DNA from: Azolla caroliniana
Lineage: Eukaryota > Plantae > Polypodiophyta
Length of the DNA: 64,000 nt
NCBI GenBank assembly: GCA_043228905.1
Contig: JBHGNT010000008.1
Location: forward strand, 11,718,001-11,782,000
Reading direction: 5' to 3'
The position numbers and the translations under genes were made by a program. Shown piece after piece: positions 465 through 61,391 of this stretch. Below the pieces are notes generated by a model. The model saw only the letters and a program-made list of their open reading frames with translations. It did not search any database and was not told the DNA's origin. Position 1 is the first letter of the stretch, and each line of letters opens with the position of its first letter.

Positions 465-1230
465 TGTTGTGCCTTTCGGCGCCGGATCGTTGCGTGAGTC
501 GGGTGGGAACCACTGAGGTTTTGGACTAGGAGAAAGAAGAATATGAGATGAGGCTAGTAATGAATAGATTATTAGAAAGAGAGATAGAAATTTCGTGAAT
601 CCCACGAGTGTATTGTATTCGATTAATCAATATTTAGATAAGAATATGTATTTAGATTGAAAGAAAGATATAAGAAACTTGTGAATCCCACAAGTATAGA
701 TTATATTATTTTCGTGAATCCCACGATTATATTAATTGGTTGGTGTTTTCGGAAATATATCCAATTTCCAAATATTTCACACACCTATTACATTGTGCTC
801 CCCATCCTTATGTAGTGATTAGGGAGTCCATGCTTCTTCTTTTTCTAACTATAGACTCCATGGTTTTCCTATAGATAGACTATATGCTTGATCTAAAGTG
901 ATCATGCTTTTTCTAACTTGTGCGTTTTTTATCAACTATAGCGTTCATGCACGATAGATGTGCATGCGTAGCTTTTTCTTTTAGCATGTGTTTTCTTTTA
1001 ACTAAAGTTTATCCTAGGTGAACTAAGCTTTCTATGTGGAACATCTATTTTTAAACACTAATGAAATGCTAGTGTAATGGTAAGACATTACATTATTAAC
1101 ATGGAGGTGCAAGGTTCGAATCTTGCCCTATGCATGTTATATATATTTTAATATTTTCTACTATTTATTCATATTTATTAAATCGGTACTTTATAAGTTT
1201 TTCACGTAGTGTACGAAATACAGTACGACA
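465..1230 (-). mobile_element. Solo LTR of the G1/G3 family inserted into G1 pol
   Basis: Ends TGTTGTGCC...TACGACA. First ~70 nt match the LTRs at 24369 and 30747. Flanks ACGT (461-464) and ATGT (1231-1234) form a 4-bp TSD with a CpG transition. The pol frame resumes on both sides. Confidence 0.85.
1063..1149 (+). promoter_or_regulatory. tRNA-like Pol III A/B-box module in solo LTR
   Basis: A box TAGTGTAATGG 1070-1080, B box GGTTCGAATCT 1113-1123, GCAAG/CTTGC stem around the T-loop, T-run at 1146-1149. Confidence 0.7.
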
Positions 1231-2984
1231 ATGTAATCCGAGAATTCCGAGAAGAAGAATACGAGGGAGAAATCTTGATGATCGGGAAGGTGCTACAAGA
1301 GATTGAGGAATCATTGGGCGATAAAGAGAAGAGAGCTGAGATCCGAAGGAAGAAGAGGCAAGTCCAAAAGTTCTTCTTGAAAAATGGATTAATATGAAGG
1401 GAGCCGAAAAGACTAGACGGCATACCACTTCGGGTAGTCGGGACGAAAGAGCAACGAAACCGGATAATGTCCGAGTTTCACGAATCCAATTGGGCTGGAC
1501 ATCGAGGAACATGGGCAACTTTTGTGAAAATCAAACAAAAATATTGGTGGAAGAATATGTACAAAGATATAGCGGAGTTCACGGAAAGCTGCGAGAAGTG
1601 TCAAATCTATTCTGAACTTCGACACTGAGATGAGTTACATCCGACATTCTCACCGACAATCAACTTCAAATGGATGGTCGACATTGTAGCCATGCCAACC
1701 GGGATCAGACAAAAGAAGTACTTGGTGTTAGCTCGGGAAGATCTCACAAACCAAGTAGAAGGTCGGGCGCTACGAAGGAAAACGTGTTCTGCGGTATGCC
1801 AATTTCTTTTGGAGGAGGTGTTTTGCAGGTACAGGTGCGTAGGACAAGTGATTGCGGATCGGGGAGAACTGAACTCTGTTAAAGCTAGGGAATTCTTCAC
1901 CAAACATGGAGTTTGGTTATCACTAACAACAGTACATAATCTGGAAGCCAACGGGAAGATTGAATGAGGACATAGTCCAATCATCAAAGCACTTGCAAAA
2001 GCATGCGACGGAAGGGTGAAGGATTGGTCGCAGATGCTCCAGTATGCACTATGGGCCGATCATACGACGCATAGTTCTATGACTGGTTTTATGCCAGCCG
2101 AACTCATGACCGGACAAGCACTGGTAATGCCGATGGAAGCCACAATTGCGACATGGATAGTGCTGTCGTGGAAGGAAGGGATGAGCCGGGAAGAATTACT
2201 AGCGGTCCGGATACGACAACTAGAAGGAAGACCTGAAGACATAGCTGAAGCAACACGCCGACAATAGGAAGCGTGATTCCAAAACAAACGCCGATTAGTT
2301 GGAAAGCATCGACTATGGCCATGAAAGATTGAAGAAGGAGATTGGGTGATTGTCTATGATAGTAGTTTGGATCATCAACATACAACAATACGGAAGTTTG
2401 CTAAGAGGTGGTTCGGGCCATATGAGGTTCGGAAAGTTTTCGGCAACGTAACTTACCGACTATTCGAGTTGGATGGAACAATACTACAGGTGCCTATCGC
2501 GGGGAAACAGGTGAAGATTTTTAAGAAGCGGATTGACGGTGAACCTTATGTAAGCTTAGACAAAACCGACAACAGGGAGCAATCGGACACAGCTCGTGGT
2601 CATGCAGAAAGAGAAGAAAGTGGTCTACAATTGATAGTTGATATAAGGGAGGAATTGGGAAGTGCTATGGATGAAGACGAACAACAGGCATCGGGAACTT
2701 CGGCACATACCGGAGGATGTGCGGGTTTGGAGAGGGCTACTGTCGTAGTGTAATTCGCACACTACGTGAAAATTGCATTTTGGTTCCTACGGATGGGACA
2801 AGGAGGAAACGGTAAAGAGAACCGATGAGAGCTGGCTGATGGAGGTCCCGGTAAGGAGAACCGGTAAGGAGACCCGATAAGAACCGGATCAAGCAGAACC
2901 GGCAAGAGCCGGATAAAGAAGGCCGGTGAGAGTCTCTCAACGGATGAAGTGACAAAGTTGTAAATAGAAGAAAAGATTGTTACA

Positions 2985-3056
2985 TGCATAGAGTAGGATT
3001 TGAACCTTGTATCTCCATGTAGACAAACCCTAACCTTACCATTGTACTAACTTATC
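2985..3056 (-). promoter_or_regulatory. tRNA-like Pol III A/B-box module in G1 3' LTR, antisense to the element
   Basis: Minus strand: A box TAGTACAATGG 3049-3039, B box GGTTCAAATCC 3006-2996; 43-nt spacing. Confidence 0.7.
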
Positions 3057-3607
3057 CTAAATGATAAGTATAGATTTAATACGTATAAGACCTTTATTTA
3101 CGCCTACCTTTATTGAAAGGCAAGTCATACATTTTTAGAATGCGTGAATACTTTATTTATAAGAAAAATGTACACCAATAAAAAATTACTCGTGCACATC
3201 TAGCAAGCATGAGCACTATATTTAGGAAATAAAAGCATAGTGTAAAAGGCAACTCATACACATTTTTAGGGCGCATGAACACTTTAGAAAAAGCATGAAG
3301 CTATGCTTAGCCTCTGCCATCCTTATATAAGGAGGAGAGAAAGATGTATAGGGTTGCTGATTATTTTACAAGGATTGATCAATCTAATATATTCGTGGGA
3401 TTCATGAGTTTATCATAAAAATTCTCTTTCTTACAATCTAAATATTGATTAAATACACTAAACACGTGGGATTCACAAGTTTTATTTCTTACTTCTCTTT
3501 CTACCTATTCATAAGTAGACTTATATTATATTCTTCTTTCTCCTAGTCCAAAACCTCATTGGTTCCCACCCGACTCACACAACGATCCGGAGCCGAAAGG
3601 CACGACA

Positions 3608-8134: not shown

Positions 8135-8621
8135 CATACCAAGAGGCACTAGAAATGGTGCCGCAGTTTATCATTCGGTTCTAGAACTTGTGGAAACAGT
8201 TAACTAGGCCACCACCGGAGGTGAACGTTGTCGTGAAGATCCGTCACTACGCGCGGATCGTGAGGCGGAACCGCCGGGGTTCTGGACCAGAAGGATTTAG
8301 AGTCGATACAAGCTTTGGCAAGAAAGTACTTAAGATAGATTGGGAAAGAAAGAAGATGAGATTACACGATTGATTTGATAACGAATTTCTTCTTCTTAAT
8401 TTTCATAAAAAAAACCGTGTTTTTCTCCTCCCCCTTCCCTCTTTTATAGATGCTCTCATGCATATGATGCATGTGAGGGTACAAGACATGCGTAAATTGC
8501 ATGTTTGCCATTTGGCGCTTAAGTATTACATGTGGTGCATGCTAACCATGTCACTCATTTTAGCACTCATGGACGAGAATTTACATGTAAAAGTACAATG
8601 ATAGAAATATAATTTCAACTA

Positions 8622-8715
8622 AATACTATGGCTTAATGGTAAGCCATTTGACTCCTAACTTGGAGGTGCAAGGTTCGAATCCATACTTGCCCTCCTTGTA
8701 TATGTATATATTTTT
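8622..8715 (+). promoter_or_regulatory. tRNA-like Pol III A/B-box module in G2 3' LTR
   Basis: A box TGGCTTAATGG 8629-8639 with paired D-stem GCTT/AAGC, CTCCTAA loop, B box GGTTCGAATCC 8672-8682, T5 at 8711-8715. Confidence 0.75.
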
Positions 8716-9363
8716 ATATATTTATTTTATCTAGTCGCCGATTCGCCGGATAACGTCGCCGGATGCCGTCGCCGGATACCGGTGCCGACGCCGGATGCCG
8801 CCGTCGGATACCGGTGCCGCCAGCGGATGCCGCCGCCGACGCCGGATATCGGTGCCGCATGCCGCCGCCGGATTGCGGTCAGATGCCGTCGGATCACCGG
8901 CTCCATCGCCGGTCCGGTTTTGGTTGGCCAAAACCCTTTTCGAGTAGCTAGCCACCTCCACTCTAAGTTCAAGCTACCTTGAACTCTCTATGCTCCACAC
9001 ATAGACACAAAGATAATATCTTTTGCTCCACCTTATATATGATGAGAGCCGTATTTGTTGTGCCTATGTGGGATATCTCACAATTGTCTCTTTTCTTTTC
9101 ACAAACTTTATACCCTCATATCTTGACATTTAGTTGTCCATTTCTCGTGTAATAAAGTGCATTCGAAACCTCCATCATTTTGTACTTAGATATTAAAAAT
9201 GTTATCTTCACAATTATTGTATTACATGATTCATACTCGATTTTGTACGTTTTATGGGATTTTCACACTATTGCCGAAAATCTTCACGACATCCACCCCC
9301 ACCAAACCGCACGTCCTCCGGTACGTGCCAAGAAGAGAAGAAGTGAGATTTCGGCTACGATGA

Positions 9364-12300
9364 TCAATTAGATTCTTCCATGTCTTCATTTTCATCCGGC
9401 CTATTATGTTCATCGTCGAGGTAATCGAGGTCAGGATCCTTGTCTTGTCTTTTCTTGAAAAGCTTTACTCTTTTTCCTGCAATGGGTACGGCCAACCTTG
9501 ATCCGTCTAGTTCCGCAAGGTGGTATGTGGCATTATCGTTGGCACTTGTCACCACATACGGCCCGAACCATATTCTTGCGAACTTCCTTGTTGTACTATG
9601 TTGATTGTCAAGGGTGCTGTCGTAAACCAAAACCCAATCCCCTTCTTCAATCTTCTTGGGACGAAGTCAATGCGTGTTGTCGAACCGAACTTTGTTCTTT
9701 ACTCAGGCTGCCTTCATCATCTTTCGCGCTTTTTCTAAATCTTCAGGTCTTCTTTCAAGTTGGCTTATCCGCGCCGCTAATAACTCTTCTCGGCTCATCT
9801 CGTTCCCCCACGGTATCGCAACCCATGAGGCGATCGTCCTTTCGATGGGCATAATAGGCTTTTGTCCATACATAAGCTCCGTCGGCATATACCCTGTCAC
9901 CGAGCTATGTGTCGTTCTATTGGCCCACAAGGCATAGGGTAATAGTCGTGGCCAATTCCCGACTCGACCGTTGCATGCCCGTACGATGGCTTTAATGATA
10001 GGTCCATGCCCTCGCTCGATCTTCCCATTTGCTTCCGGATTGTAGGCAGTCGTGAGGGAGAGCTTCACGCCTAGCCTTTCGAAGAGCTCCATCGCTTCGT
10101 GCGCGTCCAACTCCCCTCGGTCGGCCACTATCTTCCCTACACATCCATATCGGCAAACAACATCTTCAAGTAAAAATTTACAAACGGCTGAAGTCGTCTT
10201 ATTTGTCAAGGCTCGTCCTTCCACTTGATTTGTCAAGTCTTCCCTTGCCAGCGCTAAGTACTTCATTTGTCCCACTCCCATTGGCATCGAGACCAGATCC
10301 ACCATCCATTTGAAGTGAATGGTGAGTGGGTATGTCGGCTTTAACTCATCCCGATGACGTATATTTGAATATATTTGGCAAGTTTCACATGTGGAAACGA
10401 AATGGAGTACATCTTTGTACATGCTTGGCCACCAGTACTTCTCCTTCAATTTTTCGAACGTCGCCCATGTTCCTCTATGACCTGCCCAAGCACTCTCGTG
10501 GAATTCGGTCATTAGCGTCTCTTGCTCTTCTTTCTTTACCACCACTCGACGTGGTATTCCTGTCCTTTTTCTTTGGATGTCGCCAAAGGAATCCTCCCTT
10601 CAAGAAGTATCGGTAAGCTTTCTTTCGGATTCGTAGGGCCTCCTCCTTTGTCAACGAAGCATCTGCCGTCAATGTTCTTAGGAATCTACCAATGAGTAAC
10701 CACTCTCCTTCGTACTCGTTCTCGTTGAAGGCGTGGAGGGTTTGCATGTCCTGGTATTCCGCCGACAATCAAGCCATCTTGAAGAAGTCGAGGGCGACAT
10801 CTTCATCTTCCGAAACCATGTTACTTCCATTTGAAAATCTTGCCCTCGACAGCATGTCAACCATGGCGTTCTTCTTCCCTGCGATGTGACGGATCTCTGG
10901 GTTTAAAGACTTGATGTAGGCGATCCACCTTAGCATAGCAAGATCTGGGGTCGCACATCCCGAGACCATTCCGAGAATTGGGAGACAATCTGTCTCTATT
11001 ATCACTTCTGACCCGATCAGGTAATCTTTGTCCGTCTTCACTGCCGACACAATACGCCAAAGTTCCCGCTTGACTTGGGCATATCTTTGTTGCCGTTCGC
11101 TGAGAACCTTTGCTCCGAACCGGACGGCATATCGCACATTATCTTCACCTTCTTGATTGATGACCCACCCGATTCCGGTTGGGCTCATATCTACGGTCAC
11201 ATAAATTGGTTTCCCTTCGGCATAGTCGGCCTTCCTTAGTGCTGGAGCTTCAAGAAGCAGTTTCTTTAATCTTCGCATCGCCTCTGTGTGCTCGACTCGC
11301 CATTCGAACTTTATTCTTTTCTTTAGTAGTCCATATAACGATTCGGCGACATGAGCGTAGTGAGGAATCCATATATGATAAAACGCGCACGCTCCAAGGA
11401 ACCTTCGAACCTCCGTTTGGTTTTCGCATTCTTCTTTCATGTCTTGGATTGCGTTCACTTTGGATGGTGAGGGCTTCCGGCCGTATGCTCCACACAAGTG
11501 ACCTACCACCAAGATCTCCGGTTGCCCGAATGCGGATTTTTCTCCCGAAAATGTCAAATTCGCATCTTCGAGCCTTTGAAGCACCTTCTCACAATCTTTC
11601 ATATGATCCGCAACGAACTTTCTACAACCTTCCTTATCTTTCGATTCATCTTTCTCCTCATCCGAACATCCTTTTATCGGAATATTATCCAAGAATGGCA
11701 TCGTGATGTCCGGAATGCAATCCTTCAAGACTTTATTCATGGCATTCACCATATGAGCCACCGAGTTCGTTGTGCCTTGGGGTAAGGTACACATCCGCAC
11801 AAGCCCGATCGGAGTCCTCATGGTTGTAATGTCCCGACTGTCGATCGCCAATTGGAATTGGTCATATCCGGAGTAGAGATCGCCAATGGAGTAGATGGAC
11901 CGGCCCGCAAACGCTTCGGCAAATTCGTCCACGCTCGGACCGATTCCGGCATTTCGAATTGTCACCTTGTTGACGGGTTGAAGATCTTGGATGAATCGCA
12001 ATGATCCATTCTTCTTCGGCACCGTGAACCACCTATTGGAATAAGGAGCATTCGACGGTTCTAGAATTCCCATACTCACCTTCTCCTTTAAGAGCTCAAT
12101 CAGCTTCGGAAGGTGTGCTCTCGGAACCGGTATCGGTTTCAAGTTCCAAGGCACATGAGGCACCGTGAAGATCACCATTGGCTCTATAACCTTTGGGTCG
12201 GCGCATCCGATTTCTCGTGGGAAGAATGTGAAAGCCTTCCCATGTCTCTCAAGCATATCGCGAAACATTCGCTCCTCTTCAGGGAGAAGGAAATCCTCCT

Positions 12301-12859
12301 TTCCAACTCGTAGCTTCCCCTTCGTCTCTTTGGTGAAGTCATGACCTATCTTCTTCGGATCTCTTAAGCTTGGATCGTTAGCGACTTCCTTCATCTTTTG
12401 CCAGCTATCTTCCGGTAGCGGAACCGCAACTGGCTTGATCTTCTTATCCACCGTTTTATATTTCGTGTTGATGTCAGCTTCCTTCATCGAGATGCCACGA
12501 CAGTATTCATCGATGATAGCGTACATGTTGACGGAGTTAACCGAAATCACGCATTGGTTGTGAAGATAGCTCAAGTCCACGACGTCCTCGATTTCGCCGA
12601 TGGTGTCGTTAAATGAGGCTTCTTCCATAATATGAGTCACGAACTCCCCTTCTTCTATTATGTTCTCTTCTTTCAGCATCTTCTCGAATTCTTGTATCCG
12701 GCTCTTGTGCTTCTTGTCGGGTAGTACTAGTTTACATGCGCCACTAGGTGTGACACATGTTGCTTCTCCTTGCAATCCACGCGCTCTTCTTTCTTGTGGG
12801 GTCTTGTGATTGCTCGGACTATTTGTGCCCCATGCTTCAATAGTCCGCTCTAAAAATCC
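9364..12859 (-). pseudogene. G2 pol (RT, RNase H, integrase) with a few inactivating lesions
   Basis: ORF 10769-12775 (RT DLYSGYDQF, LPQG, FLDN in place of FLDD; RNase H). ORF 9703-10545 (HESAWAGH...CETC, ADRGE, ANGKIER). ORF 9364-9630 (GPY motif). Confidence 0.92.
12796..12859 (-). other. Predicted -1 ribosomal frameshift site and H-type pseudoknot between G2 gag-PR and pol
   Basis: Minus strand G GAT TTT TAG, then stem CGGACTATT/AATAGTCCG whose loop TGGGG pairs with downstream CCCCA. The -1 frame is open from this site into the 668-aa pol ORF. Confidence 0.7.
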
Positions 12860-15054
12860 GAGGATTCGCCTCCGAGACTATCTCGATTCCTTTCATGATT
12901 GGCTCGCACTGTTAGGAATTGGACCGATCTTTGGTTGTCAAGACTCTTTATTCGTGCGAAGGCTGCTCCATTATCGAACACTTTGGTCTCCATCCGAGAT
13001 GATGTGATATAAGGTTGCCCTAGGATGATAGGATGCGACGCCGATTCTTGTACGAAGAAGTGTTGATCCATCTCCACATCCCCGATCGTGACTTTGACAT
13101 TGGGACAAGCTCCGTACAAGTCCTCCGTAGACTTTGTTGCCGCGCGAATCTTCCATCCGTGATTTGTATTGATTGGCCATCTTCCCTTTTTGTAGAAGTC
13201 GGTTGACATGAGGTTGATCTCCGAGCCGTGGTCGATCAAGGCTACGACGGTCTCTTTCTTCTCCCCGATCTTCACCGGCGTCTCCGTTGTCGCTCGTGCC
13301 CAATGAGGTCGAGTGTAGTGGCTGTCCACCATATCTTCATCGATTTCGTCTCTTGCCATCGTTATGGCATTCGTTTTTGCTTTTTGCGGCTTCTCTTCTT
13401 CCTCGTCCGATTGTTGTCTCTTTCTCTTTACAAGGTCCACGATCGTGTCATGGAACTCCTTCTTCGTAATGCCAAGCAATTCCCTCAAGGACAAAGTTAC
13501 GTGGCTATCAAGAACTCGTTCTTCGAGAATCTTCTTTAGGTCCGTCGTCTGCTCTATGTCTGACCTTAGCTTATAGGTAGGTATGGTCCTTGTCCTCCGA
13601 GCGGGGTCTTCGACACCAACCTTCACGGGCCGAACTGTTTCTTCAACTCGTATGCTCGGCTCCCCTTTTCGGCTTGATTCTCGTTCCTCCGTTTGTAAAG
13701 GTCGACTCGTCTCCGCATCGTCCTTCTTTTTCGCGTTCCTTGTTTCATGTCTTTTTGATGGCCCTTGCTCTTCTATTCTCTTTCTCTTTTCTTCGACGAA
13801 CACCTCGTGGTTGTCACACATCACCTCTGCGAGTATGGTGTTGTCGTCCACCGGATCCGACCACCTGGTTATGCTTTGCACGCTTCGGTCCGCAAGCTCT
13901 AGCTCGTTCGATGTGATTTTTCCCTTCTTCTCATATTCGAGAACGGAAGCCCAAAACTTTGCTCCCGCTCTAGCAGCTTCAGTCTTGTCTTTCCCAACTC
14001 TTATTCCGGCCGACGCAGCATAGTGCATCGCATCCACATGGGTCGCATCGGCATCCTCCATAGATCTCTTCATTCCTCCTCTTCCGAAATTCACCCGTAG
14101 GGGTCTTCTAGTCTCGCTTGAGCAGATCATGTTGTTCTCTATGTATACGATATTTTGTCGAATCGCCTCTCGAAGGCTCGCACAATCCCTTCTCATGTGG
14201 TCCATGCTATCGCACCACACGCATCTAAAGGGTTCTTTTGCTTTAGGGCCCCGACGATTCATGTTGGCTAGAGTGACCTTCTCGAACTTCTTCGCTAGCT
14301 CTTCAATGATGTCGTCATCAATCTTCTTTTCTTCCACCTTACTTTGTCTCGGCGGCTCAACTACTTTCGGCGGTCTTGCTTTCTCTGTGGTAGTTGGTCC
14401 CGTCAAGTCAGTGTCATCAACCCATTGGAAACGCTTGTCGAGCCTATTGCATGCCCGCTTCACCGCGATCCAGTTCGCTACGAGCCCATTTGCTTGGGTA
14501 TCATCTTCGAGAAGAGTCCCCAACTCCCGTCTATCCTTTATGTCCACGGCCTTCAAGAAGTACAAAGTCTTGTCCTCTTCAAGCAACACTTGGTCCGTAT
14601 TGGGGAGACGACTAAACATCTAGTCGAATTCGTCGTACACCCTCGAAATGCTCATCTTCTTAGTCTTCTTCTCTATCCACTTCATCAGGGCATGTCGAGT
14701 CATCCTCGTTGAGTCTTCAGTCACGAACTCCGCTAGTATCGTTTCCTTGAACTCAGACCATGTTGTCTTTCCTTCGTAAAGCTCGATGACGCGTTTTTGG
14801 ATGTTGTTGGCGACAACTCTGTTGAAGCTTGCGATTTGACGTGCCTTGGACACGTCCCTTTGATTCATCTCCCTCTTATATGCATCAAGGAACTTCGTAA
14901 CGTTCCTTCCATCGAATTGGCCCTCGAGCTCTACGACACGATCGACAGCCTTCTCCACGCTCGCGTCGTTGTCCCGAGATCTCATCATTTGCTCGACGAT
15001 TAGCATCATCCTTTCGAGCTCTCCTGCTTGGTTGCTTGAGGATGCCATCTCCAA
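12850..15054 (-). pseudogene. G2 gag plus aspartic protease, one premature in-frame TAG (14620-14622)
   Basis: ORFs 14620-15054 and 12850-14619 share a frame. CCHC knuckle CVWCDSMDHMRRDC; protease LIDHGSEINLM...IILGQP. Confidence 0.9.
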
Positions 15055-15089
15055 GTATTAATCTCGACTTGATCCTTCCTACCGCCTCT

Positions 15090-15107
15090 TTCACGTCGGG
15101 TTCACCA
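15090..15107 (-). promoter_or_regulatory. G2 primer-binding site complementary to tRNA-Trp 3' end
   Basis: Plus strand TTCACGTCGGGTTCACCA equals the 3' 18 nt of plant cytosolic tRNA-Trp(CCA) as I recall it; it lies 8 nt from the LTR. Confidence 0.8.
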
Positions 15108-15508
15108 CTTAATTATGTCGTGAAGATCCGTCACTACGCGCGGATCGTGAGGCGGAACCGTCGGGGTTCTTGACCAGAAGGATTTAGAGTCGATACAAGC
15201 TTTGGCGAGAAAGTACTTAAGATAGATTGGGAAAGAAAGAAGATGAGATTACACGATTGATTTGATAACGAATTTCTTCTTCTTAATTTTCATAAAAAAA
15301 ACCGTGTTTTTCTCCTCCCCCTTCCCTCTTTTATAGATGCTCTCATGCATATGATGCATGTGAGGGTACAAGACATGCGTAAATTGCATGTTTGCCATTT
15401 GGCGCTTAAGTATTACATGTGGTGCATGCTAACCATGTCACTCATTTTAGCACTCATGGATGAGAATTTACATGTAAAAGTACAATGATAGAAATATAAT
15501 TTCAACTA

Positions 15509-15602
15509 AATACTATGGCTTAATGGTAAGCCATTTGACTCCTAACTTGGAGGTGCAAGGTTCGAATCCATACTTGCCCTCCTTGTATATGTATATATTT
15601 TT
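15509..15602 (+). promoter_or_regulatory. tRNA-like Pol III A/B-box module in G2 5' LTR
   Basis: A box 15516-15526, B box 15559-15569; same sequence as the copy at 8622. Confidence 0.75.
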
Positions 15603-17933
15603 ATATATTTATTATATCTAGTCGCCGGTTCGCCGGATGCCGTCGCCGGATGCCGACGCCGACGCCGGATTGCGGTCGGATGTCGTCGGATCACCAGCTC
15701 CATCGCCGGTCCGGTTTTGGTTGGCCAAAACCCTTCTCGAGTAGCTAGCCACCTCCACTCTAAGTTCAAGCTACCTTGAACTCTCTATGCTCCACACATA
15801 GACACAAAGATAATATCTTTTGCTCCACCTTATATATGATGAGAGCCGTATTTGTCGTGCCTATGTGGGATATCTCACAATTTTCTCTTTTCTTTTCACA
15901 AACTTTATACCCTCATATCTTGACATTTAGTTGTCCATTTCTCGTGTAATAAAGTGCATTCGAAACCTCCATCATTTTGTACTTAGATATTAAAAATGTT
16001 ATCTTCACAATTATTGTATTACATGATTCATACTCGATTTTGTACGTTTTATGGGATTTTCACACTATTGCCGAAAATCTTCACGACAACATCAAGGAAA
16101 TATTTTTAACAACTCTTCAAGAGATATTTTTAACAACGCTTCAAGAGCCACTCCGAACAACGTTGGTAGTATTGGAGTTCACCACAAGTACCATCGACCA
16201 AGTCATTGAGAATAGAATAGTAACAACATGTTGATGGAGGTTTTACAAAAGGCCTAGTTGAAGGAAGAGGAACTCCGATTTCGGCAAGCAGTGTCATTCA
16301 TGACATGTCTAAACCCCAGACACTCGACTTTGGAGTGTACAATGCGATTCCCGGGCCCACACTATCGATCGGTGCAAATATAACTTACTAAACAGACCAA
16401 CAGTAGTAGTAAGACAAATTGAGCCCAGAGAGGGAAGAAGGCCGGATGAGAGATTTCGGAGGGATGAGGAGTATCGGCAGGAGGAGAGATTCATATATGC
16501 GGGCAGATTCCGACCGAAAAAATATCGAGGGGTATGTTATGATGGGGATGAATTCCCTTACTATGATTGGGAACGCAAAGAGGAACGAAGGAATTTTGAT
16601 AGACAAAGATTCGCCGATCAGCGAAGGAATCATGATCAAAGGCGGAATAGTGAGAATTGGCAAAACATTCGTCGATATCCACCACAGGATTACAAAAGAG
16701 CTCCCGAGGAATGAAGGAAGCTGCAATATGCCAAGGCATTCCAATACAATCCCAAAGGGCAGGAAGACCTAGTGCGGCATACTTCCGGAACACAATCGGT
16801 TGATGTAGACAAGGGAGAAATGAGTGAGCTCTGAAAACTCTATTGCTACTTTTGCTAGCAAGAAGGCCATTACGTAAACCAATGGCCATTAAATGGGAAA
16901 GGAAAGGCGTTAGCAGTCAACATGTGACTGGGGTGCAACAAGTCATGACCCGGTCAAAAGGAAAAACTGTGGAATGAGAGGTGCAAGAAGCGGCATGAAA
17001 AACGGGGCAAACAGCTGACGAAGTAAGATAAAGAGAAGATGTAGGCGGTAGAGGACCTGACGTGGCGGGCATTAACCGATTGTCAGATCATGATGTCGTC
17101 GGCCAGACTTTTGCAATTAGTGCCATGTTAATGGAAACAATCACAACAATACTTGTACTAGGAAAGAACAACTGCCAGAGGCCTCGATACAGTTTGTGAA
17201 TCCAAGCGAGGGACCAACCATAATGGACGATCATAGTCCGGCAATTAAAGTAATCATTAAGGAAGTGGAAGTGCCCAGAGCAATAATAGACAGTGGGTCA
17301 GGAGTAAATGTAACCTATGGATAGTTCCACTGTTTGAGGTTGATGTAGTAGAAGCCATCATTCCGTACGTATCTAGCAAGGAGTCGGAGACCACGGAGAG
17401 TCCTACCAAACCAGAACCAGAAGTTGTCTGAGAGTAGTGTCAGACCCATGAGGCGTTAGAAAAAGAAATGGCAGTATCACAACGAGTAAAGCCATCCACG
17501 GTGGAGGAATTTAATTTGGGGACAATCAAAGGACCACGACCAATTAATGTAGCAAAAGAGATGCAATAGGAGGAAAAATCAGAGATGATTGCACTACTAA
17601 AGGAATTCAATAATGTTTTTGCCTGGTCGTACAAGGAGGTGAAGGGACTAGATTTGAAATTCTACCAACATATAATTCACTTAATTATGGGTGCAAAACT
17701 GGTAGCCCAAAGGCGGTATTGGATGAACCCTAACTACAGAGTACAAGTGAAGGAGGAAATCGGAAAATTGTTAATGGTTGGATTTATACGACCGGTAAAC
17801 CAGGCTACGTGGTTGAGTCTGATAGTGGTAATACCCAAGAAAAATGGGAATATCAGAGTCTATGTGGATTACCGGAACCTAAACGCAGCAACGGTCATAG
17901 ATGCGTTTCCGCTTCCTTTTACAGATGGAGTAC

Positions 17934-24368: not shown

Positions 24369-24926
24369 TGTCGTGCCTTTCGGCTCCGGATCATTGCGTG
24401 AGTCGGGCGGGAACCACTGAGGTTTTGGACTAGGAGAAATGGAAAATCTTAGGCAATGAAGAATATGAAATATGTTGTAAGAAAGAAAGATATGAAAAAC
24501 TCGTGAATCCCATGACTATAGTGTATTAATTGATACTTAGAATGTAAGAGAGAAAATATATGGCAAAATCATGAATCCCACGAATATTTTTTTTATTAAT
24601 CAATCCTTGTAAAAATAATCAACAACCCCCCATACATCTTTCTCTCCTCCTTATATAAGGATGGGAAAGGCGATGCATAGCTTCATGCTTTTTCTAAAGT
24701 GTTCACGCACACTAAATGTGCATGAGTTGCCTTTTTACACTATGCTTTTATTTCCTAAATATAGTGCTCATGCTCGCTAGATGTGCACGAGTCATTTTTT
24801 ATTGGTGTACATTTTTCTTATAAATAAAGTATTCACGCATTCTAAAAAATGCATGACTTACCTTTTGATAAAGGTAGGCGTAAATAAAGGTCTTATACGT
24901 ATTAAATCTATATTTAAAACACTTAA

Positions 24927-25015
24927 GATAAGTTAGTACAATGGTAAGGTTGGGGTTTGTCTATATGGAGGTACAAGGTTTGAATCTTGCCTTATGCACG
25001 TAATATATATTTTTA
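24927..25015 (+). promoter_or_regulatory. tRNA-like Pol III A/B-box module in G3 3' LTR
   Basis: A box TAGTACAATGG 24934-24944, B box GGTTTGAATCT 24977-24987, T-run near 25010. The 5' LTR copy (~31290-31345) has lost part of its A box. Confidence 0.65.
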
Positions 25016-25156
25016 ATATTTTATTTTGTTTATTATATGTACTTTAAATCAGATATAGTATTTTACATATTTCACGTAGTGTGTGATTCACACTACGACA
25101 CTCGCCCCCTCCGAACCCGCACATCCTCCGGTATGTGCCAAAGTCCCCGATGCTTG

Positions 25157-28100
25157 TTATTCACCTTCATCCGAAGGTTCCTCCGATTCTCCCCTTAAGT
25201 CGACTATGAGTTGTAATCCACTTTCTTCGCTTTCCGCATCACCGCGATCTTTGTCCGATTTTTCCTTCTTGTCGGTCTTGTCTAGGATCACATAGGGTTC
25301 TTCATCAGTCCGCTTCATGAAAATCTTCACCCGTTTCCCGGCTATAGGCACTCGTAGCATCGTTCCATCCAACTCATATAGTCAGTAAGTTCCGTTCTCG
25401 AAAACTTTCCGAACCTCGTATGGCCCGAACCACCTTTTCGCGAACTTCTGCATCGTTGTATGTTGATTATCCAAACTACTGTCGTAGACAATCACCCAAT
25501 CTCCTTCTTCAATCTTCCGCGGTCGTAGTTGGTGCTTTGTGTCGAACCGGCTTTTATTCCGGAATCGCGCTTCTTGTTGTCGACGTATTACTTCCGCTAT
25601 GTCTTCCGGTCTTCCCTCTAGTTGTCGTATCCGGACCACTAGTAGTTCTTCCTGACTCATCTCTTCCTTCCACGGTAGCACTGTCCATGTCGCGATCGCA
25701 GTTTCCGTTGGCATTATCGGTGCTTGTCCAGTCATGAGTTCTGTTGGCATGTAACCGGTTACGGAGCTATGCATCATCCGATCCGCCCATAGTGCATACG
25801 GAAGCATCTGCGGCCAATCCTTCACCATTCCATCGCATGCCTTCGCAAGTGCTTTGACGATCGGACTATGTCCTCGTTCGATCTTCCCGTTGGCTTCCGG
25901 ATTGTATGTCGTTGTCAGTATTAACCGAACTCCATGTTTGGTGAAGAATTCCTTAGCTTTATCAGAGTCGAGTTCTCCCCGATCCGCAATCACTTGTCCT
26001 ACGCACCCATACCTACAAAACACCTCCTCCAAAAGAAATTGGCATACTGCAGAACACATGTTCCTTCGTAGCGCCCGACCTTCTACTTGGTTTGTGAGAT
26101 CTTCCTGAGCTAACACCAAGTACTTCTTTTGTCCGATCCCGGTTGGCATGGCTGCAATATTGACCATCCATTTGAAGTTGATTGTCGGTGAGAATGTCGG
26201 ATGTAACTCATCTCGGTGTCTAACTCCAGAGTAGATTTGACACTTCTCGTAGCTTTTCGTGAACTCCGCTATATCTTTGTACATGTTCTTCCACCAATAT
26301 TTTGGTTTGATTTTCACAAAAGTTGCCCATGTTCCTTGATGTCCAGTCCAATCGGATTTGTGAAATTCTGACATTATCCGGTTTCGTTGCTCTTTCGTCT
26401 TGACTACCCGAAGTGGTATGCAATCCGGTCTTTTCGGCCCCCTCCATATTAATCCATTTTTCAAGAAGAACTTTCGGACTTGCCGCTTCTCACTTCGGAT
26501 CTCGGCTCTCTTCTCTTTATTGTCCGATGATTCCTTGATTTCTTGTAGCACTTTCCCAATCAACAAGCTTTCTCCCTCGTATTCTTCTTCCCAGAATTCT
26601 TGGATTATGTTCACCCGACATATGTGCTCCGAAGCAAAGTAGTCTTCGGAAACTTCTTCATTATCGGATTCGTTTATGTCATCTCCGAACCGTGCCCTTG
26701 ATAGCATATCCACTACCGCGTTGTCTTTTCCGGAGATGTGTCGTACCTCCGGATTAAGCGACTTAACATATGCAATCCATCTTAGCATAGCCACATCCAG
26801 TATCGTGCAATACCGCATCATCCCGAGTATCGGAAGACAATCCATTTCGATCACTACTTCGGCTCCAATCAATTAATCTCGATCTGATTTGATTGCCGAC
26901 ACGACTCCCCATAAATCTCTTTTGACTTGTGCATATCCGTGTTGCCTTTCGTTGAGAACCTTTGCTCCGAATCGGATCGGCTTGATTGATGACCCATCCG
27001 ATTCCGATTGGACTTGTGTCAACCGTTACTATGATCGGTTGTTCATAGTTCGGCTTCTTTAGTGCTTTTTCCCTCTGTAGTGATTCTTTGAGCTTCTTCA
27101 CGGCTTTGGTATGCTCTGGTTTCCATTCAAACTTCTTACCCTTCCACAAGAAGTGATAGAGTGGGTCCGCAATATGTGCATGGCGCGGAATCCATATGTG
27201 ATAGAATGCACATGCTCCAAGAAACCTTCGGACTTCGGATTGTGACTCGCATACTTCTTTCATAGCTTGAATCGCATCGATCTTGATTGGTGACGGTCTT
27301 CGGCCGTAGGACCCACATAGATGTCTGACTACCAATATTTCTTCTTGTCCGAATGTCGATTTCTCCCCGGAAAGAGTTAGGTGCACATCTTCTAACTTTA
27401 GAAGCACTTTCTCGCAATCACAAATATGGTCGACTACGAACATTCGGCAGCCCCGATCATCCATAGTTTCATCTTTTTCTTCTACCGCGCATCCTTTCAT
27501 CGGAATGTCATCTAGGAACGACATTGTTATCTCCGGAATGCAATCTCGAAGCACCTTGTTCATCGCGTTCATCATATGTGCAACCGAGTTTGTCGCTCCT
27601 TGTGGTAGCTTACACATCTGGACTAATCCTATCGGTGTTCGCATGGTAGTGATGTCTCAGCTCTCCACGGCTAGTTGGAATTGGTCATACCCCGAGTATA
27701 GGTCTCCGATGGAGTATATCGCTCGACCGGAAAATGCTTCCGTAGATTCGTCCACTATCGGACCAACTCCGGAGTTCCGGATCGTGACTTTGTTCACCGG
27801 TTGCAAGTCTTGGATAAATTGGAGTGACCCATTCTTCTTCGACACCGTAAACCATCGATTCAAGTACGGAGCGTTTCATGTCTCTAGAATCCCCATCGCC
27901 ACTTTCTCCTTGAGCAAGTCGTTGATTTTCGGAATATGCGCCCGTGGCACCGGAATCGGCTTCAGGTTCCACGACACATGGTCAATCGTGAAGATCACCA
28001 TCGGCTCCACTATCTTCGGGTCAACGCATCCTATTTCTTTCGATGTAAATGCAAAAACTCTCCCATGTCACTCTAGCATCCCACGGAATCGTTCTTCTTC

Positions 28101-30707
28101 ATTCTTTAATAGGAACCCAACTCCACTGATCCGAAGTTTCTTCCGGGTCTCATCCATGAAGGCATGTCCGATATCCGTGGACTTCCGAAGTGTCGGATCC
28201 CCCGAGACTTCTTTCCTCTTTATTTCGCTATCGGTGGGTAACGGTCCCGCGACCGGTTTCACTTTCTTCTCCACGGTCTTGTAATTCGTACTTACCATTT
28301 CTTCTTCTTGGCGGAGCGCATCCGACCCCATTTTCACAATGATCTCGTACATCTCGACCGATTCCACCGGAATTACCTGGTTTTCCTGGCTTGTATCTGC
28401 CGTGAACTTTTCAAGCCGTTGTAGCGTGCTCCCATAGAACACTTCTTCGACTATTCCCACGATTTCTTCATCTTCTTTTATTATTGATGTCGACCGTAAC
28501 TTATCCACCACTTTTCGGTATTCTTTCTTCATTCCTCTAGTTACGGCCGTGTACGTAGATGCTCCATTCAGATCGATTCGTACTTGTTTTGCTCTGAGAG
28601 TTTTCTTCCTATGTGGGGTATCAGGGCTTCTCGGACTATCACTTCCCCACTCCGCAACAGTCCACTCTAAAAATCCATCCTTGTTTGGGACGAGCTCTCT
28701 CTTGTTCCTTTCATGATTTTCCGACACCGTTAGGAATTGGATGGATTTCCCTCCGTTTTGGCTCCGAATTCGTGCAAAAGCCGCACCACTATCGAGCAAC
28801 TTCGTCTCCATCCATGAAGCCATGATAAAGGGTTGCCCGAGGATCACGGAGTGTGAAAACTTGTCTTGTATGAAGAAATTTTGGTCGATCTCGATATCCC
28901 CGATCTTCACCGTCACATCCGGACAAGCCGCAAATAGATCTTCCGTTGCTTCAGTGGCCGCCCGAATCTTCCATCCATGATTGGTGTTAATAGGCCACTT
29001 CCCCTTCTAGTAGAACTCCTTAGACATCAAATTGATCTCTGATCCATGATCAATCAATGCTAGCACGGGCTCTTTGATGTTGCGGATTTGGACTGGAGTT
29101 TCGGTAGTTGCACGCACCTAGTGTGGCTTTGTATAGTGGGAATTCGGAATCTCCTCCTCCACTTCGGTGTCGTTCATCAGAACGGTATTTGCATTCACCA
29201 TCGGCACATTTTCCTCCGTAGTTTGTCTTTTTCTTTTTACGTGATCCACAAGAAGATCATGGAACTCCTTTTTCTCTATTCCGAGTAATTCCCGAAGCGA
29301 AAATTCTACCCGGCTATCGAGGATTCTCTTTTCGAACACCTTTTTCAAGTCTGTTTGTTGTTCAATGTCCGAGGCGAGCTTGAATGCCGGAATCGCCTTT
29401 TCTTTTCCCTTCCCTCTGGAGTTCCAGCTTTCCGGTGTCTTTGATGGTCCGACCGCATCATCCGTGCGCTGTCGTTTTTCATCCACATACACTTCATGCA
29501 ATTGACAAAGGGCGTATACGTTATTCTTATCGATGGGGCACTCCCATCCCGTAGCGTCCTGGATGCCTTCCGCGGTGCTTCGGATCTCGTTGGAGTTGGT
29601 TTTCTCGGTGTTTTCTAGCACTTCCGCCCAAAAAGACACCTTTGCTCCCGATGACTCCCCGACATGTATTCCCGCGGTTGTCGCGTAATTGCTCTTGGCT
29701 GCTATTTCCTCCTCTAGGACCTTCTTCATGATGCCTTTTCGGAAGTTCGGTTGGAGCGGCTTCCGAGAGTCCATCGAATGAATCTGAATTCCCTCGTAGT
29801 AGATAAGATCCCATCGTAACGCTTCGTTGTGCTCGTCGCAATCCCTCCGATCATGTTCGGTCCTATCGCACCATATGCACCGACGGTCCATATACTTGGA
29901 ACTTGTGGGACGGTCATCCGACTTCTTCACCATCACAATTTTCAGATTCTCCATCTCCTTCAACAACTGCTCCACCGTAGTTGTGTCAATTCCCTTCTCG
30001 ATCGTAGCTTCCCGAGCCCGCGGTTGATGGTCTTCCGATCCGGATCTCGGTTACAGAATCGGTTCCGAAACCCTCTTTTCTTCGTTGGCAATCCATTGCC
30101 CCCTCTTTGTGTATCACGCGATGATAGCCCGCACGCTTTCCCATGTTTCGGTGAGGCCGCTCTCGGTAGTCATGTCCTCTAGAAGCACTCCAAGATCCTT
30201 CCGGTCTCGGACGTCTACGGCTCGTAAGAACATGATAACTTTGTCCGGTGCGAAGATAGCTTGATCTCTCGCAGACAACCTCCCGAACCGACTTTCGAAT
30301 GCTGAAAAACACATCGAGGACCTTCATCCCCTTGTCCAACGTTTCCACCCAATCCTCGAATCCTCTCCGCGTTGCTTTGGAGGAGTCCTCGATAGGGAAC
30401 GTGGTCTGTTGCGCCTCTTCAAACACTTCCTATGTCAGATTTTGTTGTTGTAGCCCATGGATACTTGCTTGAAGCCCGTCGGTAGCCACCCGGTTGAAGG
30501 ATGTCACTTGCAGTCCTTTCGAAATTCTACACCGTAGCATTTCCACCTTGTATTCCCGAAGATAGCGTGATACGTCCTTTCCGTTGAATTGCCTAATCCG
30601 TTGCACGAGCTACTCTACTGCCGCCGCTATCTCTGACATCGCACGTTGTTCTTGAAGCATCCGCTCGAACATCATGATCATGTTGTTGGCCTCTAGTTGA
30701 TTTTCCA
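25157..30707 (-). pseudogene. G3 gag-pol, fragmented
   Basis: ORFs 30610-30707, 29118-29975, 28068-28916, 27657-27863, 26763-27644, 25382-26872 and 25157-25372. Confidence 0.9.
28613..28676 (-). other. G3 counterpart of the -1 frameshift site and pseudoknot
   Basis: Minus strand GGATTTTTAG, stem GGACTGTT/GATAGTCC with G-U pairs, loop GTGGGG pairing with downstream CCCCAC. Confidence 0.65.
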
Positions 30708-31357
30708 TCTCCTTACCACCTGTTTTCACGTCGGGTTCACCAATTGTGTCGTGCCTTTCGGCTCCGGATCGTTGCGTGAGTCGGGCGGGAACCACTGAGG
30801 TTTTGGACTAGGAGAAAAGGAAAATCTTAGGCAATGAAGAATATGAAATATGTTGTAAGAAAGAAAGATATGAAAAACTCGTGAATCCCACAAGTATAGT
30901 GTATTAATTGATACTTAGAATGTAAGAGAGAAAATATATGGCAAAATCATGAATCCCACGAATATTTTTTTTATTAATCAATCCTTGTAAAAATAATCAA
31001 CAACCCCCCATACATCTTTCTCTCCTCCTTATATAAGGATGGGAGAGGCGATGCATAGCTTCATGCTTTTTCTAAAGTGTTCACGCACACTAAATGTGCA
31101 TGAGTTGCCTTTTTACACTATGCTTTTATTTCCTAAATATAGTGCTCATGCTCGCTAGATGTGCACGAGTCATTTTTTATTGGTGTACATTTTTCTTATA
31201 AATAAAGTATTCACGCATTCTAAAAAATGCATGACTTACCTTTTGATAAAGGTAGGCGTAAATAAAGGTCTTATATGTAATAAATCTATATTTGGTAAGG
31301 TTGGGGTTTGTCTACATGGAGGTACAGGGTTTCAATCTTGCCCTATGTATGTAATAT

Positions 31358-52500: not shown

Positions 52501-52712
52501 TTGAAAAGCTAGTTCAAGAAACGGCTGATGTGCAATTAGCTGCTGAGGCGATGGGAAGGTTGTCGGAGGAGGACACACTTGCGCATTGGGTCCTAGAAGC
52601 AAGGCTAAATGGGGAACCAACCAGAAAAAGGCTGAAGAAGGGGCCACGATCGGGAACAAGACCAGTTACTCGGTCAAGGGGCCCAGACGTAGTGGAGCGA
52701 AATACTGTTTAG
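46546..52712 (+). CDS. Transposon accessory gene, isoform a (574 aa): unknown N-terminal domain, coiled region, RING-H2-like finger, acidic tail
   Basis: Exons 46546-46574, 47079-47760, 47839-47982, 48067-48400 and 52177-52712. All introns are GT-AG, phases are compatible and there is no internal stop. RING-like CIAC...PCNHTYHLLC...CLGDC. Confidence 0.75.
46618..46980. repeat. Degenerate ~26-bp tandem repeat containing telobox TTAGGGTTT, in the first coding intron of the accessory gene
   Basis: GATTAGGGTTTGTGATTGAAATTTCT-like units with several TAGGGTTT cores. Confidence 0.85.
48404..52153. repeat. 3.7-kb array of the palindrome TAGCTAATTAGCTA filling intron 48401-52176, with a ~1.8-kb higher-order duplication
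   Basis: Dense motif copies with short variable linkers. The marker TACCATACTGTAGCTAATAAGCTTAGTCTTTTC occurs at 48404 and 50211. Confidence 0.95.
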
Positions 52713-52961
52713 TTGGATATGATTGTTAGCTTAGGGATTTTGCTAGGGTTTTATGAAGTTTTACTATCCTGTTGGACAAGTAAAACCTCAGATTGGTTGT
52801 TGCTTGATCCACATTATGTAATGGAACTCTATGATGTTTTTCCAAGATAATTTGAAGAGTGTTGTTCTATGACTGAAACTCTTTGATGTTCAGGATATTG
52901 TTTTGTGAGACTAGTAGTTACTTTGTGAGTGTGAATATGTTGGTGTTTTCTGATGTTGCAG

Positions 52962-54016: not shown

Positions 54017-54160
54017 ATATGTAAAGAGATGACATTATTCAATGAAGAATTTAATTACTTGTTCCCACTGTACTTATCTACTATGTAATTTGAGGAATAT
54101 GTTGCAGATTGTTGATTTCATTCTATTGATGACTATTTAGCTATTGACAGCTAATTAGCT

Positions 54161-54675
54161 ACATTTGTACAGCTAATTAGCTGCATTTGTACAGCTAATT
54201 AACTACTGATGACTATTTCGCTATAACTTATAACTTAAAACTTAACAAAAAAGACATGATTTTATTGAGAAAGAAGCACAGAAAGCAGACTGTATACAAG
54301 AAATTGATTCCAAACGAATTTATTGATCTGTTTTCGCGAAATACATGTTTGTTTTACAAGAGAACATGGTAAGTGCTACTTGTAGCTACAAATTCCATGG
54401 CATACTATTGTAAATACATTTGTACAGCTAATTAGCTGCATTTGTACAGCTAATTAGCTACTGATGACTATTTCGCTATAACTTATAACTTAAAACTTAA
54501 CAAAAAAGACATGATTTTATTGAGAAAGAAGCACAGAAAGCAGACTGTATACAAGAAATTGATTCCAAACGAATTTATTGATCTGTTTTCGCGAAATACA
54601 TGTTTGTTTTACAAGAGAACATGGTAAGTGCTACTTGTAGCTACAAATTCCATGGCATACTATTGTAAATACATT
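54161..54675. repeat. 255-bp direct duplication covering the transposase stop and 3' UTR
   Basis: TGTACAGCTAATTAGCTGC at 54166 and 54421; CTACAAATTCCATGGCATAC occurs in both copies. Confidence 0.9.
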
Positions 54676-60348: not shown

Positions 60349-61391
60349 TGACAGTGAAGCCCCCGGGGTGCTTCATCACGAAGGCTGGCCTAGCCCTTTA
60401 CCGTTCTTCCCAGTTCCGGAACCTTCTAATCCTTCTGCGTAGTGTGAGCTTTGTCAGTTTCCCTGTTCGGCCTTGAAGGATCCAGATTTGTCCGAATCAG
60501 CACTGTCGGGGTAGTTGTGGTTCGTGCGGCGAAGTCGCAGGGACTAAGGTTAAGGGGAGTTCAAGGAAATTTTATAAGGCTTGCGCTCAAATGTTTGGAA
60601 GATAAAGGATATGAAGAATAATAGTTTAAAGTAATATGTGTGAGAGAGAGACTAGTATAGATAAAAGATAGAGGCAATGTATGATTCAAGACGCAAGATA
60701 GAGACAAAGTATGATTTAAGACAAAAAAGTTTATGATATGAATATGATGTGTACTACGAATACAAGATTTTACCAACTTTACAATGTTTGGTAGCAAGAT
60801 GAACCCTTTCTCTACCGACCCTTGATTCGAACTCTTGACTCCAACATGGAAACACGAGCCTCTTCACCAACAAGCTAACTTGTTTGTTTTTTTTATTATC
60901 TTATTTCTCTAACTTTCTCTTGATTCCCTCCCTTGTTTTCCCTTTCCCCTCTTTATATAAGTGTTGCCATGCATATGGTAATGTATGGGAGCATGGCATG
61001 CATGCAATGCATGAGTTACATGTAATGCATGATCGCCATTTGGCGCACATGCATTGCATGTGATGAATGATGGCTATGTATGAAAATAGATATGGGATAA
61101 GTATAATGATGAAAATGCATTCTAAAATAACTAACCTAGCTTAGTGGTGTATGCTTGGTGCTTGGTATACAAGGTTGAGGGTTCAAGTCCCTCAATTTTA
61201 CTTAATACAATATATAGCTTCATTCTTATATCATGAAGCACATTTATTACACACTTTTAGAAATAAATAGCCTAGCCTAGTGGTATGTACATTGTACATC
61301 GTATATAAGGATGTGGGTTCAAGTCTCTCAAATATTATTAAATACAACATTTAAGCTCATTTTTATATCGTGAAGCACATTCTTCACGACA
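60349..61391 (-). mobile_element. Isolated LTR (G4) of the same Gypsy group, truncating Copia D
   Basis: Ends CTTCACGACA like G2, with an imperfect other end TGACAGTGAAG. Same layout: pyrimidine tract, TATA at ~60953, GCATG-rich block, tRNA-like boxes. No TSD match. Confidence 0.65.
61130..61332 (+). promoter_or_regulatory. Two tandem tRNA-like A/B-box modules in the G4 LTR
   Basis: A TAGCTTAGTGG 61137 with B GGTTCAAGTCC 61180 (stem TTGAGGG/CCCTCAA); A TAGCCTAGTGG 61273 with B GGTTCAAGTCT 61316. Both have 43-nt spacing. Confidence 0.7.

What the first reader, a model, noticed from the sequence alone, without database searches (positions are those of the whole stretch)
8622..8715. Gypsy LTRs carry a conserved antisense tRNA-like Pol III promoter
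Seen: every LTR of the Trp-primed Gypsy group whose U3 is readable has a tRNA-type A box and B box. A/B starts are 1070/1113, 3049/3006 (minus), 8629/8672, 15516/15559, 24934/24977, 61137/61180 and 61273/61316. Spacing is 43 nt in all seven, although the G1/G3, G2 and G4 LTR bodies barely resemble each other. The module is always in U3, a few hundred bp upstream of the TATA, antisense to the element, and usually followed by a T-run. D-stem or T-stem pairing survives in some copies while acceptor and anticodon stems are decayed. Known: A/B boxes bind TFIIIC, and Cassandra TRIMs carry 5S-derived Pol III promoters in their LTRs. Inference: a selected tRNA-derived module in autonomous LTRs, making a ~100-nt RNA or acting as a TFIIIC barrier against silencing. 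I know of no description of this.
Basis: partly seen in the sequence, partly recalled or inferred. Interest (0 to 1): 0.85.

Follow-up and report, generated by a model that had tools for sequence, protein, structure and literature searches.

The report
Captured tRNA promoters in Gypsy LTRs
Several families of protein-coding plant jumping genes carry a worn-down copy of a tRNA gene's promoter in their end repeats, facing backwards, and its key letters change less than the letters between them, so it likely still binds the tRNA transcription factors and may shield the element's own promoter, though no binding or RNA has been shown.

Summary
The seven A/B box pairs are real. A consensus scan of the whole window finds exactly these seven, all 43 bp apart, against 0-1 hits in shuffles. 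All lie antisense in U3 of Trp-primed Ty3/gypsy LTRs with Phygy-lineage features (4-bp NCGN target duplication, 7.9 kb). Metagenome relatives add two more LTR families with the module, and no free-standing SINE copy turned up in 344 kb. In the G4 family, listed variants avoid the core box letters (0 of 34) and fall in the spacer (14 of 62). It is at least three different tRNA-like captures. One copy faces sense. The G3 5' LTR has lost its A box. Best reading: a captured type-2 Pol III promoter kept as a TFIIIC/TFIIIB site beside the Pol II promoter; the function is inferred only. Nearest known: Helenus TRIMs (non-autonomous). This scan noted a similar LTR-borne promoter in a fungal chromovirus on other DNA.

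The parts
8622..8715 (+). tRNA-like module, type 1, in G2 3' LTR: A box 8629-8640, B box 8672-8682; antisense to the element
15509..15602 (+). same module in G2 5' LTR: A box 15516, B box 15559
8229..16088 (-). G2, full-length Phygy-like Ty3/gypsy element: LTRs 15116-16088 and 8229-9291 (13 mismatches in 973 aligned bases), gag-pol with stops, 4-bp target duplication ATGT/ACGT
15090..15107 (-). G2 18-nt primer-binding site, 8 nt after the LTR (tRNA-Trp type; label recalled, fits the Phygy row in PMC6317226 supplement)
465..1230 (-). solo LTR nested in G1, target duplication ACAT/ACGT
1063..1145 (+). type-1 module in the solo LTR: A box 1070, B box 1113
2741..3607 (+). G1 3' LTR
2975..3056 (-). 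type-1 module in G1 3' LTR: A box 3049, B box 3006
24369..31357 (-). G3 element: 3' LTR 24369-25100, PBS 30725-30742, 5' LTR 30747-31357 cut at its 5' end
24927..25006 (+). type-1 module in G3 3' LTR: A box 24934, B box 24977 (C56 lost)
60504..61391 (-). G4 solo LTR inserted in a Copia element, target duplication GCGC/GTGC
61130..61200 (+). type-2 module G4a: A box 61137, anticodon arm 61156-61172, T arm 61177-61193, B box 61180
61266..61336 (+). type-2 module G4b, tandem copy 136 nt on: A box 61273, B box 61316
60813..60884 (-). third, sense-oriented A/B pair in G4 (A box 60877, B box 60833, spacing 44), downstream of the predicted TATA at 60960

Best explanation
The modules are tRNA-derived A/B box pairs carried antisense in U3 of several Phygy-like LTR families, and they are likely kept because TFIIIC binds them, which would place TFIIIB on the side facing the element's own TATA and would likely help keep that Pol II promoter open or shielded from the flank. 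Shown: the sequence, its position, its inheritance within LTRs, at least three unlike spacer types, and fewer changes in box letters in one family. Inferred: origin by capture of a tRNA gene or tRNA-derived SINE head, spread between co-resident families by U3 recombination or patchy loss, TFIIIC binding, and the chromatin effect. Facing away from R-U5, the promoter cannot make the genomic RNA. Any Pol III product would be a 75-105-nt antisense RNA, most likely a by-product. The module is an optional accessory, because many families lack it.
For: Exactly seven hits in the window, 0-1 in shuffles; 11 of 12 hits in 120 metagenome loci are in Phygy-like LTRs, 10 of them antisense in U3. Two families not used to build the profile (L042, L109) have it antisense in the 3' LTR between PPT and TATA. 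G4-family variants from four DNA runs: 0 of 34 core box places, 3 of 12 degenerate box places (all consensus-compatible), 14 of 62 spacer places; Fisher p=0.0017. In G2 the one listed box variant, 15523 A>G, keeps the purine. Across 22 copies G53, T55, R57 and A58 are invariant, and an unscored tRNA variable-loop motif A-G-R-T before the B box is kept in 18-22 of 22. Tandem doubling is seen in G4 (3 of 3 copies) and a second, unlike module in L109. [quoted passage not shown]
Against: No binding, expression or mutant data. 25 of 31 complete relative LTRs lack it, including gag-tree sisters of G2 (L047, L069, L088), and these share assemblies with carriers and have equal or higher contig coverage in their names (a rough measure). 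Broken copies exist: G3 5' LTR, G3 and L071 C56>T, L041, L093. The variant test saw only 40 of 66 rows; 3 hidden core variants would lift p to 0.10. It covers one family, and copies are related. Cross-family box conservation is partly circular, because modules were found by their boxes. A fixed 43-44 spacing is ordinary tRNA geometry and TFIIIC tolerates other spacings (own knowledge), so it does not prove selection. In more distant holders the G2 module is covered about as well as the U3 beside it.
Confidence: 0.45

Rival explanations
1. Neutral passenger: tRNA or SINE heads landed in U3 of a few ancestral LTRs and are copied along. Sense copies in U3 are purged (they would be cut by tRNA-processing enzymes or would clash with Pol II), so mostly antisense ones remain.
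For: Patchy distribution and successful families without it. Decayed and deleted copies. Spacer homology of 16-25 of 31 among type-1 copies fits recent spread as a block.
Against: 0 of 34 core places vary against 14 of 62 spacer places in G4. The module is the only alignable part between G2 and solo-465 or L042. At least three unlike captures, plus duplication.
Confidence: 0.28
2. The short antisense Pol III RNA, or its fold, is what is selected, for example as a decoy or as a regulator that pairs with the U3 part of the genomic RNA.
For: G4 keeps anticodon and T stems (55 of 60 cells paired). Listed variants hit 3 of 32 non-box stem places, all pairing-compatible, against 11 of 36 unpaired places, p=0.04. 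No internal T4 in 17 of 19 copies.
Against: No compensatory change in the 6-sequence alignment, and the structure was read off those same sequences. Type-1 copies lack the anticodon stem in most copies. Folds are not cloverleaves, and 6 of 9 have z near 0. Terminator distance varies from 3 to over 200 nt.
Confidence: 0.13
3. The Pol III complex dampens the neighbouring Pol II promoter (tRNA-gene position effect) or marks a landing site for other elements, so the module limits or redirects transposition rather than protecting it.
For: tgm silencing and Ty targeting are known effects of yeast Pol III complexes (PMC4228148 passages). Two unchecked notes of this scan report landing-pad use in a fungus. 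L105 has one small poly(A) insert about 20 nt before an A box.
Against: No element is inserted in front of any of the seven window modules. Phygy target choice is NCGN. Carriers include young, abundant families.
Confidence: 0.09
4. The sense strand of the module, present in U3 of the genomic RNA, pairs with the primer tRNA's D and T arms (a Ty3-like bipartite primer site).
For: It would explain the antisense direction and the U3 position. Ty3 has a 5'-3' bipartite PBS (PMC3258130 passage and reference title). A tRNA-like stretch in HIV-1 U3 is recalled only; searches did not retrieve it.
Against: The primer's positions 59-76 can be read from the PBS: position 62 is A in the primer but A in only 1 of 22 modules, and the T-stem letters differ. 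The modules conserve generic B-box letters, and at least three unlike spacers serve the same primer. The primer's D arm could not be compared (empty).
Confidence: 0.05

Closest known systems
Helenus TRIMs (TRIMp3; Kojima 2024, PMC10886601; parts 1-4 of 6 and figure legends read)
   Same: tRNA-derived sequence in the LTR with conserved TRGCY/YGG and GGTTC, unlikely to be a working tRNA, unrelated to the PBS, probably several origins.
   Different: Helenus is non-coding, 311-1263 bp, and its boxes are proposed to drive its own transcription; the paper argues that autonomous partners must use Pol II. Here the carriers are 7-8-kb gag-pol families and the boxes face away from R-U5. The paper notes that 'not a few' Repbase LTRs have tRNA-like parts but analyses only TRIMs under 1 kb, and the text I read does not state orientation.
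Cassandra and Ajax TRIMs (as described in PMC10886601)
   Same: Pol III promoter from a small-RNA gene embedded in an LTR.
   Different: 5S-derived (type 1), non-autonomous; Cassandra's promoter makes the element's RNA.
Phygy lineage, non-chromovirus Ty3/gypsy (Neumann et al. 2019, PMC6317226; passages and supplement row)
   Same: 4-bp NCGN TSD, tRNA-Trp PBS in 81%, 7.7-10 kb, no extra ORF.
   Different: No Pol III element is mentioned in the main text ('polymerase III' 0 hits). Only some families carry the module.
Yeast tDNA/TFIIIC barriers and tRNA-gene position effects (PMC4228148, PMC13578239; passages)
   Same: A/B boxes next to a Pol II promoter could act this way.
   Different: Those are host loci; here the element would carry the site itself. 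Barrier function is stated as not described in plants.
tRNA-derived plant SINEs (PMC9033089 passage)
   Same: Degenerate A and B boxes in a tRNA-like head.
   Different: No tail, no TSD and no free copy found here.

Membership tests
Phygy lineage | 4-bp TSD of NCGN form | tested here: met
   ATGT/ACGT, ACAT/ACGT, GCGC/GTGC, each with one CpG-type change
Phygy lineage | tRNA-Trp PBS | tested here: inconclusive
   18-nt PBS in G2 and G3; its identity as Trp is recalled, and no tRNA gene was retrieved
Phygy lineage | 7.7-10 kb, RT-RH-INT order, no chromodomain or extra ORF | tested here: met
   G2 is 7860 bp; Pfam RVT_1, RT_RNaseH, Integrase_H2C2, rve; no chromodomain hit
Phygy lineage | RT/RH/INT tree placement with reference Phygy sequences | not tested
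Helenus (TRIMp3) | tRNA-derived A and B boxes in the LTR | tested here: met
Helenus (TRIMp3) | short non-coding element (TRIM) | tested here: not met
   G2 and G3 are 7-8 kb with gag-pol; family members have an open 505-aa gag and 1104-1145-aa pol proteins
Helenus (TRIMp3) | Pol III promoter able to make the element's RNA | tested here: not met
   by geometry: the U3 modules face away from R-U5; only G4's third pair is sense
tRNA gene | cloverleaf with acceptor stem | tested here: not met
   ARAGORN 0; no Rfam tRNA hit; acceptor pairs 0-5 of 7
tRNA-derived SINE | own TSD and tail | tested here: not met
   longest flanking repeats 4-7 nt, no better than shuffles, in 9 representatives
tRNA-derived SINE | dispersed copies outside LTRs | tested here: inconclusive
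   none at E<0.01 in 343,717 bases, but no whole genome was available
type-2 Pol III promoter | A and B box consensus at tRNA spacing | tested here: met
   18-19 of 19 consensus letters, spacing 43-44
type-2 Pol III promoter | TFIIIC binding and Pol III transcription | not testable with these tools
   only contigs were available, with no listed RNA holder

The most novel reading that the evidence does not exclude
Autonomous plant LTR retrotransposons have captured tRNA promoters at least three times and carry them in U3 as a portable TFIIIC barrier that keeps their own Pol II promoter out of heterochromatin. This would be a new anti-silencing device and the first tRNA-gene-type barrier in plants.
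Probability: 0.25. Interest if true: 0.82.

Novelty: new variant of a known kind. Interest (0 to 1): 0.5.

Why it matters
Pol III promoters in LTRs are described for small non-coding elements, where they make the element's RNA. Here they sit in protein-coding elements in a direction that cannot do that job, so a kept site must do something else. Families with and without the module occur side by side, which gives a natural comparison. If TFIIIC binding is shown, it makes an open question testable (do tRNA-type sites act as chromatin barriers in plants?) and means these genomes hold many mobile TFIIIC sites. If it is neutral, it is a modest annotation point.

Tried and rejected
No whole genome is held, so the genome-wide test could not be run. 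ARAGORN and Rfam found no tRNA; the only related hit was a 17-nt tmRNA T-arm fragment at 61177-61193 (E 0.023). The 31 PBS-pattern hits in viral contigs had no gag-pol match and were set aside as chance. The pol protein found nothing in viral or prokaryote contigs. A search for the primer tRNA gene found nothing. No RNA holder was listed; this says nothing about expression. The first gag tree mixed reading frames and was discarded; one search is the corrected FastTree tree (51 of 72 fragments; L042 is a long branch; L033, L109 and G4 have no gag row). Dropped before counting: 2 duplicate and 18 non-LTR-ended PBS matches of 123; 72 of the 103 kept lacked a recognisable 5' LTR end; 2 of the 31 'complete' LTRs (L034, L066) have doubtful starts. 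An upstream CAA is present in 11 of 21 copies, with no background test. A B-like motif at 62623 lies in a Copia LTR with no A box. The spacing-48 hit in L047 is internal, 2102 nt past the PBS. Literature: ten full-text searches found no report of tRNA-type boxes in autonomous plant LTRs. Subscription journals and Repbase entries were not searchable, and the Helenus supplements were not read.

Full report
Observation. An independent scan of both strands with general A-box and B-box consensus, spacing 30-90 and at least 18 of 19 letters, returns exactly those seven sites. Six block-shuffled windows give 0, 0, 0, 0, 0 and 1 hit. They are not tRNA genes: ARAGORN finds none and Rfam gives no tRNA hit.

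The elements. G2 (8229-16088, minus) is a full Ty3/gypsy element with RT, RNase H and integrase. Its LTRs differ at 13 of 973 aligned bases, it has an 18-nt PBS, and its target duplication is 4 bp. G1, G3, a solo LTR at 465-1230 and a solo LTR G4 at 60504-61391 share the TGTCGT start and the ACA end, and the two solo LTRs have the same kind of 4-bp site. These features match the Phygy row of Neumann et al. 2019: 4-bp NCGN, tRNA-Trp 81%, 7656-9968 bp (PMC6317226 supplement). Tree placement against reference Phygy was not tested. The window copy has stops, but relatives at 86-92% have 1104-1123-aa pol proteins and L071 has an open 505-aa gag, so the family is protein-coding. Named relatives are Riccia proteins, so a bryophyte is likely; that is inference.

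Relatives. No genome is held. The PBS 18-mer in metagenome contigs gave 121 loci from 23 of 64 parts scanned, with 123 matches. After dropping 2 duplicates and 18 without an LTR-like end, 103 remained, and 31 had a recognisable full 5' LTR (2 doubtful). Of the 31, three score 18 or more (L071, L098, L105), three carry alignable homologues scoring 15-16 (L033 with one extra base, L093 and L041 decayed), and 25 have none. The best score among 432 shuffled LTRs was 17, reached 6 times. Two partial G2-family LTRs also carry it (L060, L096). A profile search found two families not used in training, L042 and L109, with the module antisense in the 3' LTR between PPT and TATA; L109 has a second, unlike module 131 nt on. 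In all 120 loci (279,717 bases) the consensus scan gives 12 hits: 10 antisense in U3, 1 sense in a G4-type LTR and 1 internal. No copy outside an LTR reached E 0.01, and no TSD flanks the module in 9 representatives. So the module travels with LTRs, in six LTR groups, and ten groups lack it.

Not one module, and not lineage-wide. Spacer identity is 16-25 of 31 among G2, L033, G1, solo-465 and L042 (type 1), 13-15 to L109a, and 7-15 for G4, L109b and the sense copy, near chance. That means at least three captures. On a FastTree gag tree of 51 fragments the carriers are scattered, and G2's sister group (joint support 100) holds L047, L069 and L088, which lack the module. Carriers and non-carriers share assemblies and have similar coverage figures in their contig names. 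Patchy loss or transfer of U3 pieces between families would both give this pattern; I cannot tell them apart. The G3 5' LTR has lost most of its A box, and G3 and L071 have lost C56. G4 has a third pair in sense just past the predicted TATA.

Constraint. Contigs from four DNA runs laid on the two G4 modules list 40 of 66 variant rows. They fall on 0 of 34 core box places, 3 of 12 degenerate box places and 14 of 62 spacer places (p=0.0017; whole boxes against spacer p=0.03). Three hidden core variants would remove the significance, and copies are related, so this is suggestive only. For G2, 40 of 128 rows were shown: one A-box change that keeps the purine, and none in the B box. That has little power, and there the module is covered about as well as the U3 beside it. 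Across 22 copies G53, T55, R57 and A58 never change, which is partly circular, while the unscored A-G-R-T motif before the B box is kept in 18-22 of 22, which supports tRNA ancestry. G4-type copies also keep anticodon and T stems (55 of 60 cells paired, no compensatory change), and their listed variants prefer unpaired places (11 of 36 against 3 of 32, p=0.04). Folds are not cloverleaves; 3 of 9 have z below -2. A T4 follows within 45 nt in 18 of 21 copies against 52% background.

Mechanism. A and B boxes bind TFIIIC, which recruits TFIIIB upstream (PMC13578239 passage). Antisense in U3, 'upstream' is the side toward the element's TATA, 134-313 nt away, and Pol III would run outward, so it cannot make the genomic RNA. 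I think the site is most likely kept for factor binding that helps the Pol II promoter stay open or insulated (0.45). Every functional step is inferred from yeast precedent. Rivals: a neutral passenger with sense copies purged (0.28), a selected short RNA (0.13), self-repression or a landing pad (0.09), and pairing with the primer tRNA (0.05). The last is weak because the primer's 3' end, read from the PBS, has A62, which 21 of 22 modules lack.

Comparison and novelty. Helenus TRIMs have tRNA-derived A/B boxes in LTRs but are short and non-coding, and that paper expects autonomous elements to use Pol II. It also remarks that other Repbase LTRs have tRNA-like parts (PMC10886601, parts 1-4 of 6 and legends). 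This finding fails Helenus membership on size, coding and direction, and resembles it in origin. Ten searches found no account of such boxes in autonomous plant LTRs; of the other papers cited I saw passages only. This scan has unchecked notes of a tRNA-type promoter in fungal chromovirus LTRs and none on this sequence. Verdict: a real feature and a new variant of a known kind, optional within the lineage, probably under some selection, with function untested. Interest 0.5.

Noticed in passing
window 60813-60884 (-); L105 1654 (+); L098: A sense-oriented A/B pair just downstream of the predicted TATA in all three G4-type LTRs, placed where it could start a Pol III transcript toward U5 and the PBS; intact only in L105.
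   Followed up: partly
L105 about 1359-1415 (-): A 39-nt poly(A)-rich insert between 9-nt direct repeats, about 20 nt before the A box of the first module; a single case.
   Followed up: no
window 61180 and 61190: G>A and C>T at paired T-stem places have similar shares in three of four runs (54/53%, 39/33%, 11/10%; 4/8% in the fourth), possibly a compensatory G-C to A-T change; phase unknown.
   Followed up: partly
window 8735-8920 and 15610-15720: A GC-rich CCGG repeat tract beside the module, about 90 nt longer in G2's 3' LTR than in its 5' LTR and variable among relatives.
   Followed up: no
L036, L046, L047, L068, L071, L074, L080, L088, L093, L042: Many contigs read PPT-LTR-PBS in a row: either tandem arrays sharing one LTR or collapsed assemblies.
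   Followed up: no
L040, L051, L054, L083, L091, L104: The same PBS follows a different LTR end (TGTAAACA) in 29-35% GC contigs, probably another lineage or host; no strong module.
   Followed up: no
L056, about 1440 and 1070 nt before the LTR end: Two copies of an A/B pair at spacing 44 outside the LTR, unlike the modules; probably tRNA pseudogenes.
   Followed up: no
window 63782-64000 (+): Start of another G2-like LTR, cut by the window end before the module.
   Followed up: no
window 48400-52200 and 56400-57600: Arrays of a palindromic 20-bp unit, partly inside ORFs at 47071-56500.
   Followed up: no
L033, L042, L109: These carriers have short internal regions or no gag hit and may be internally deleted derivatives.
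   Followed up: no
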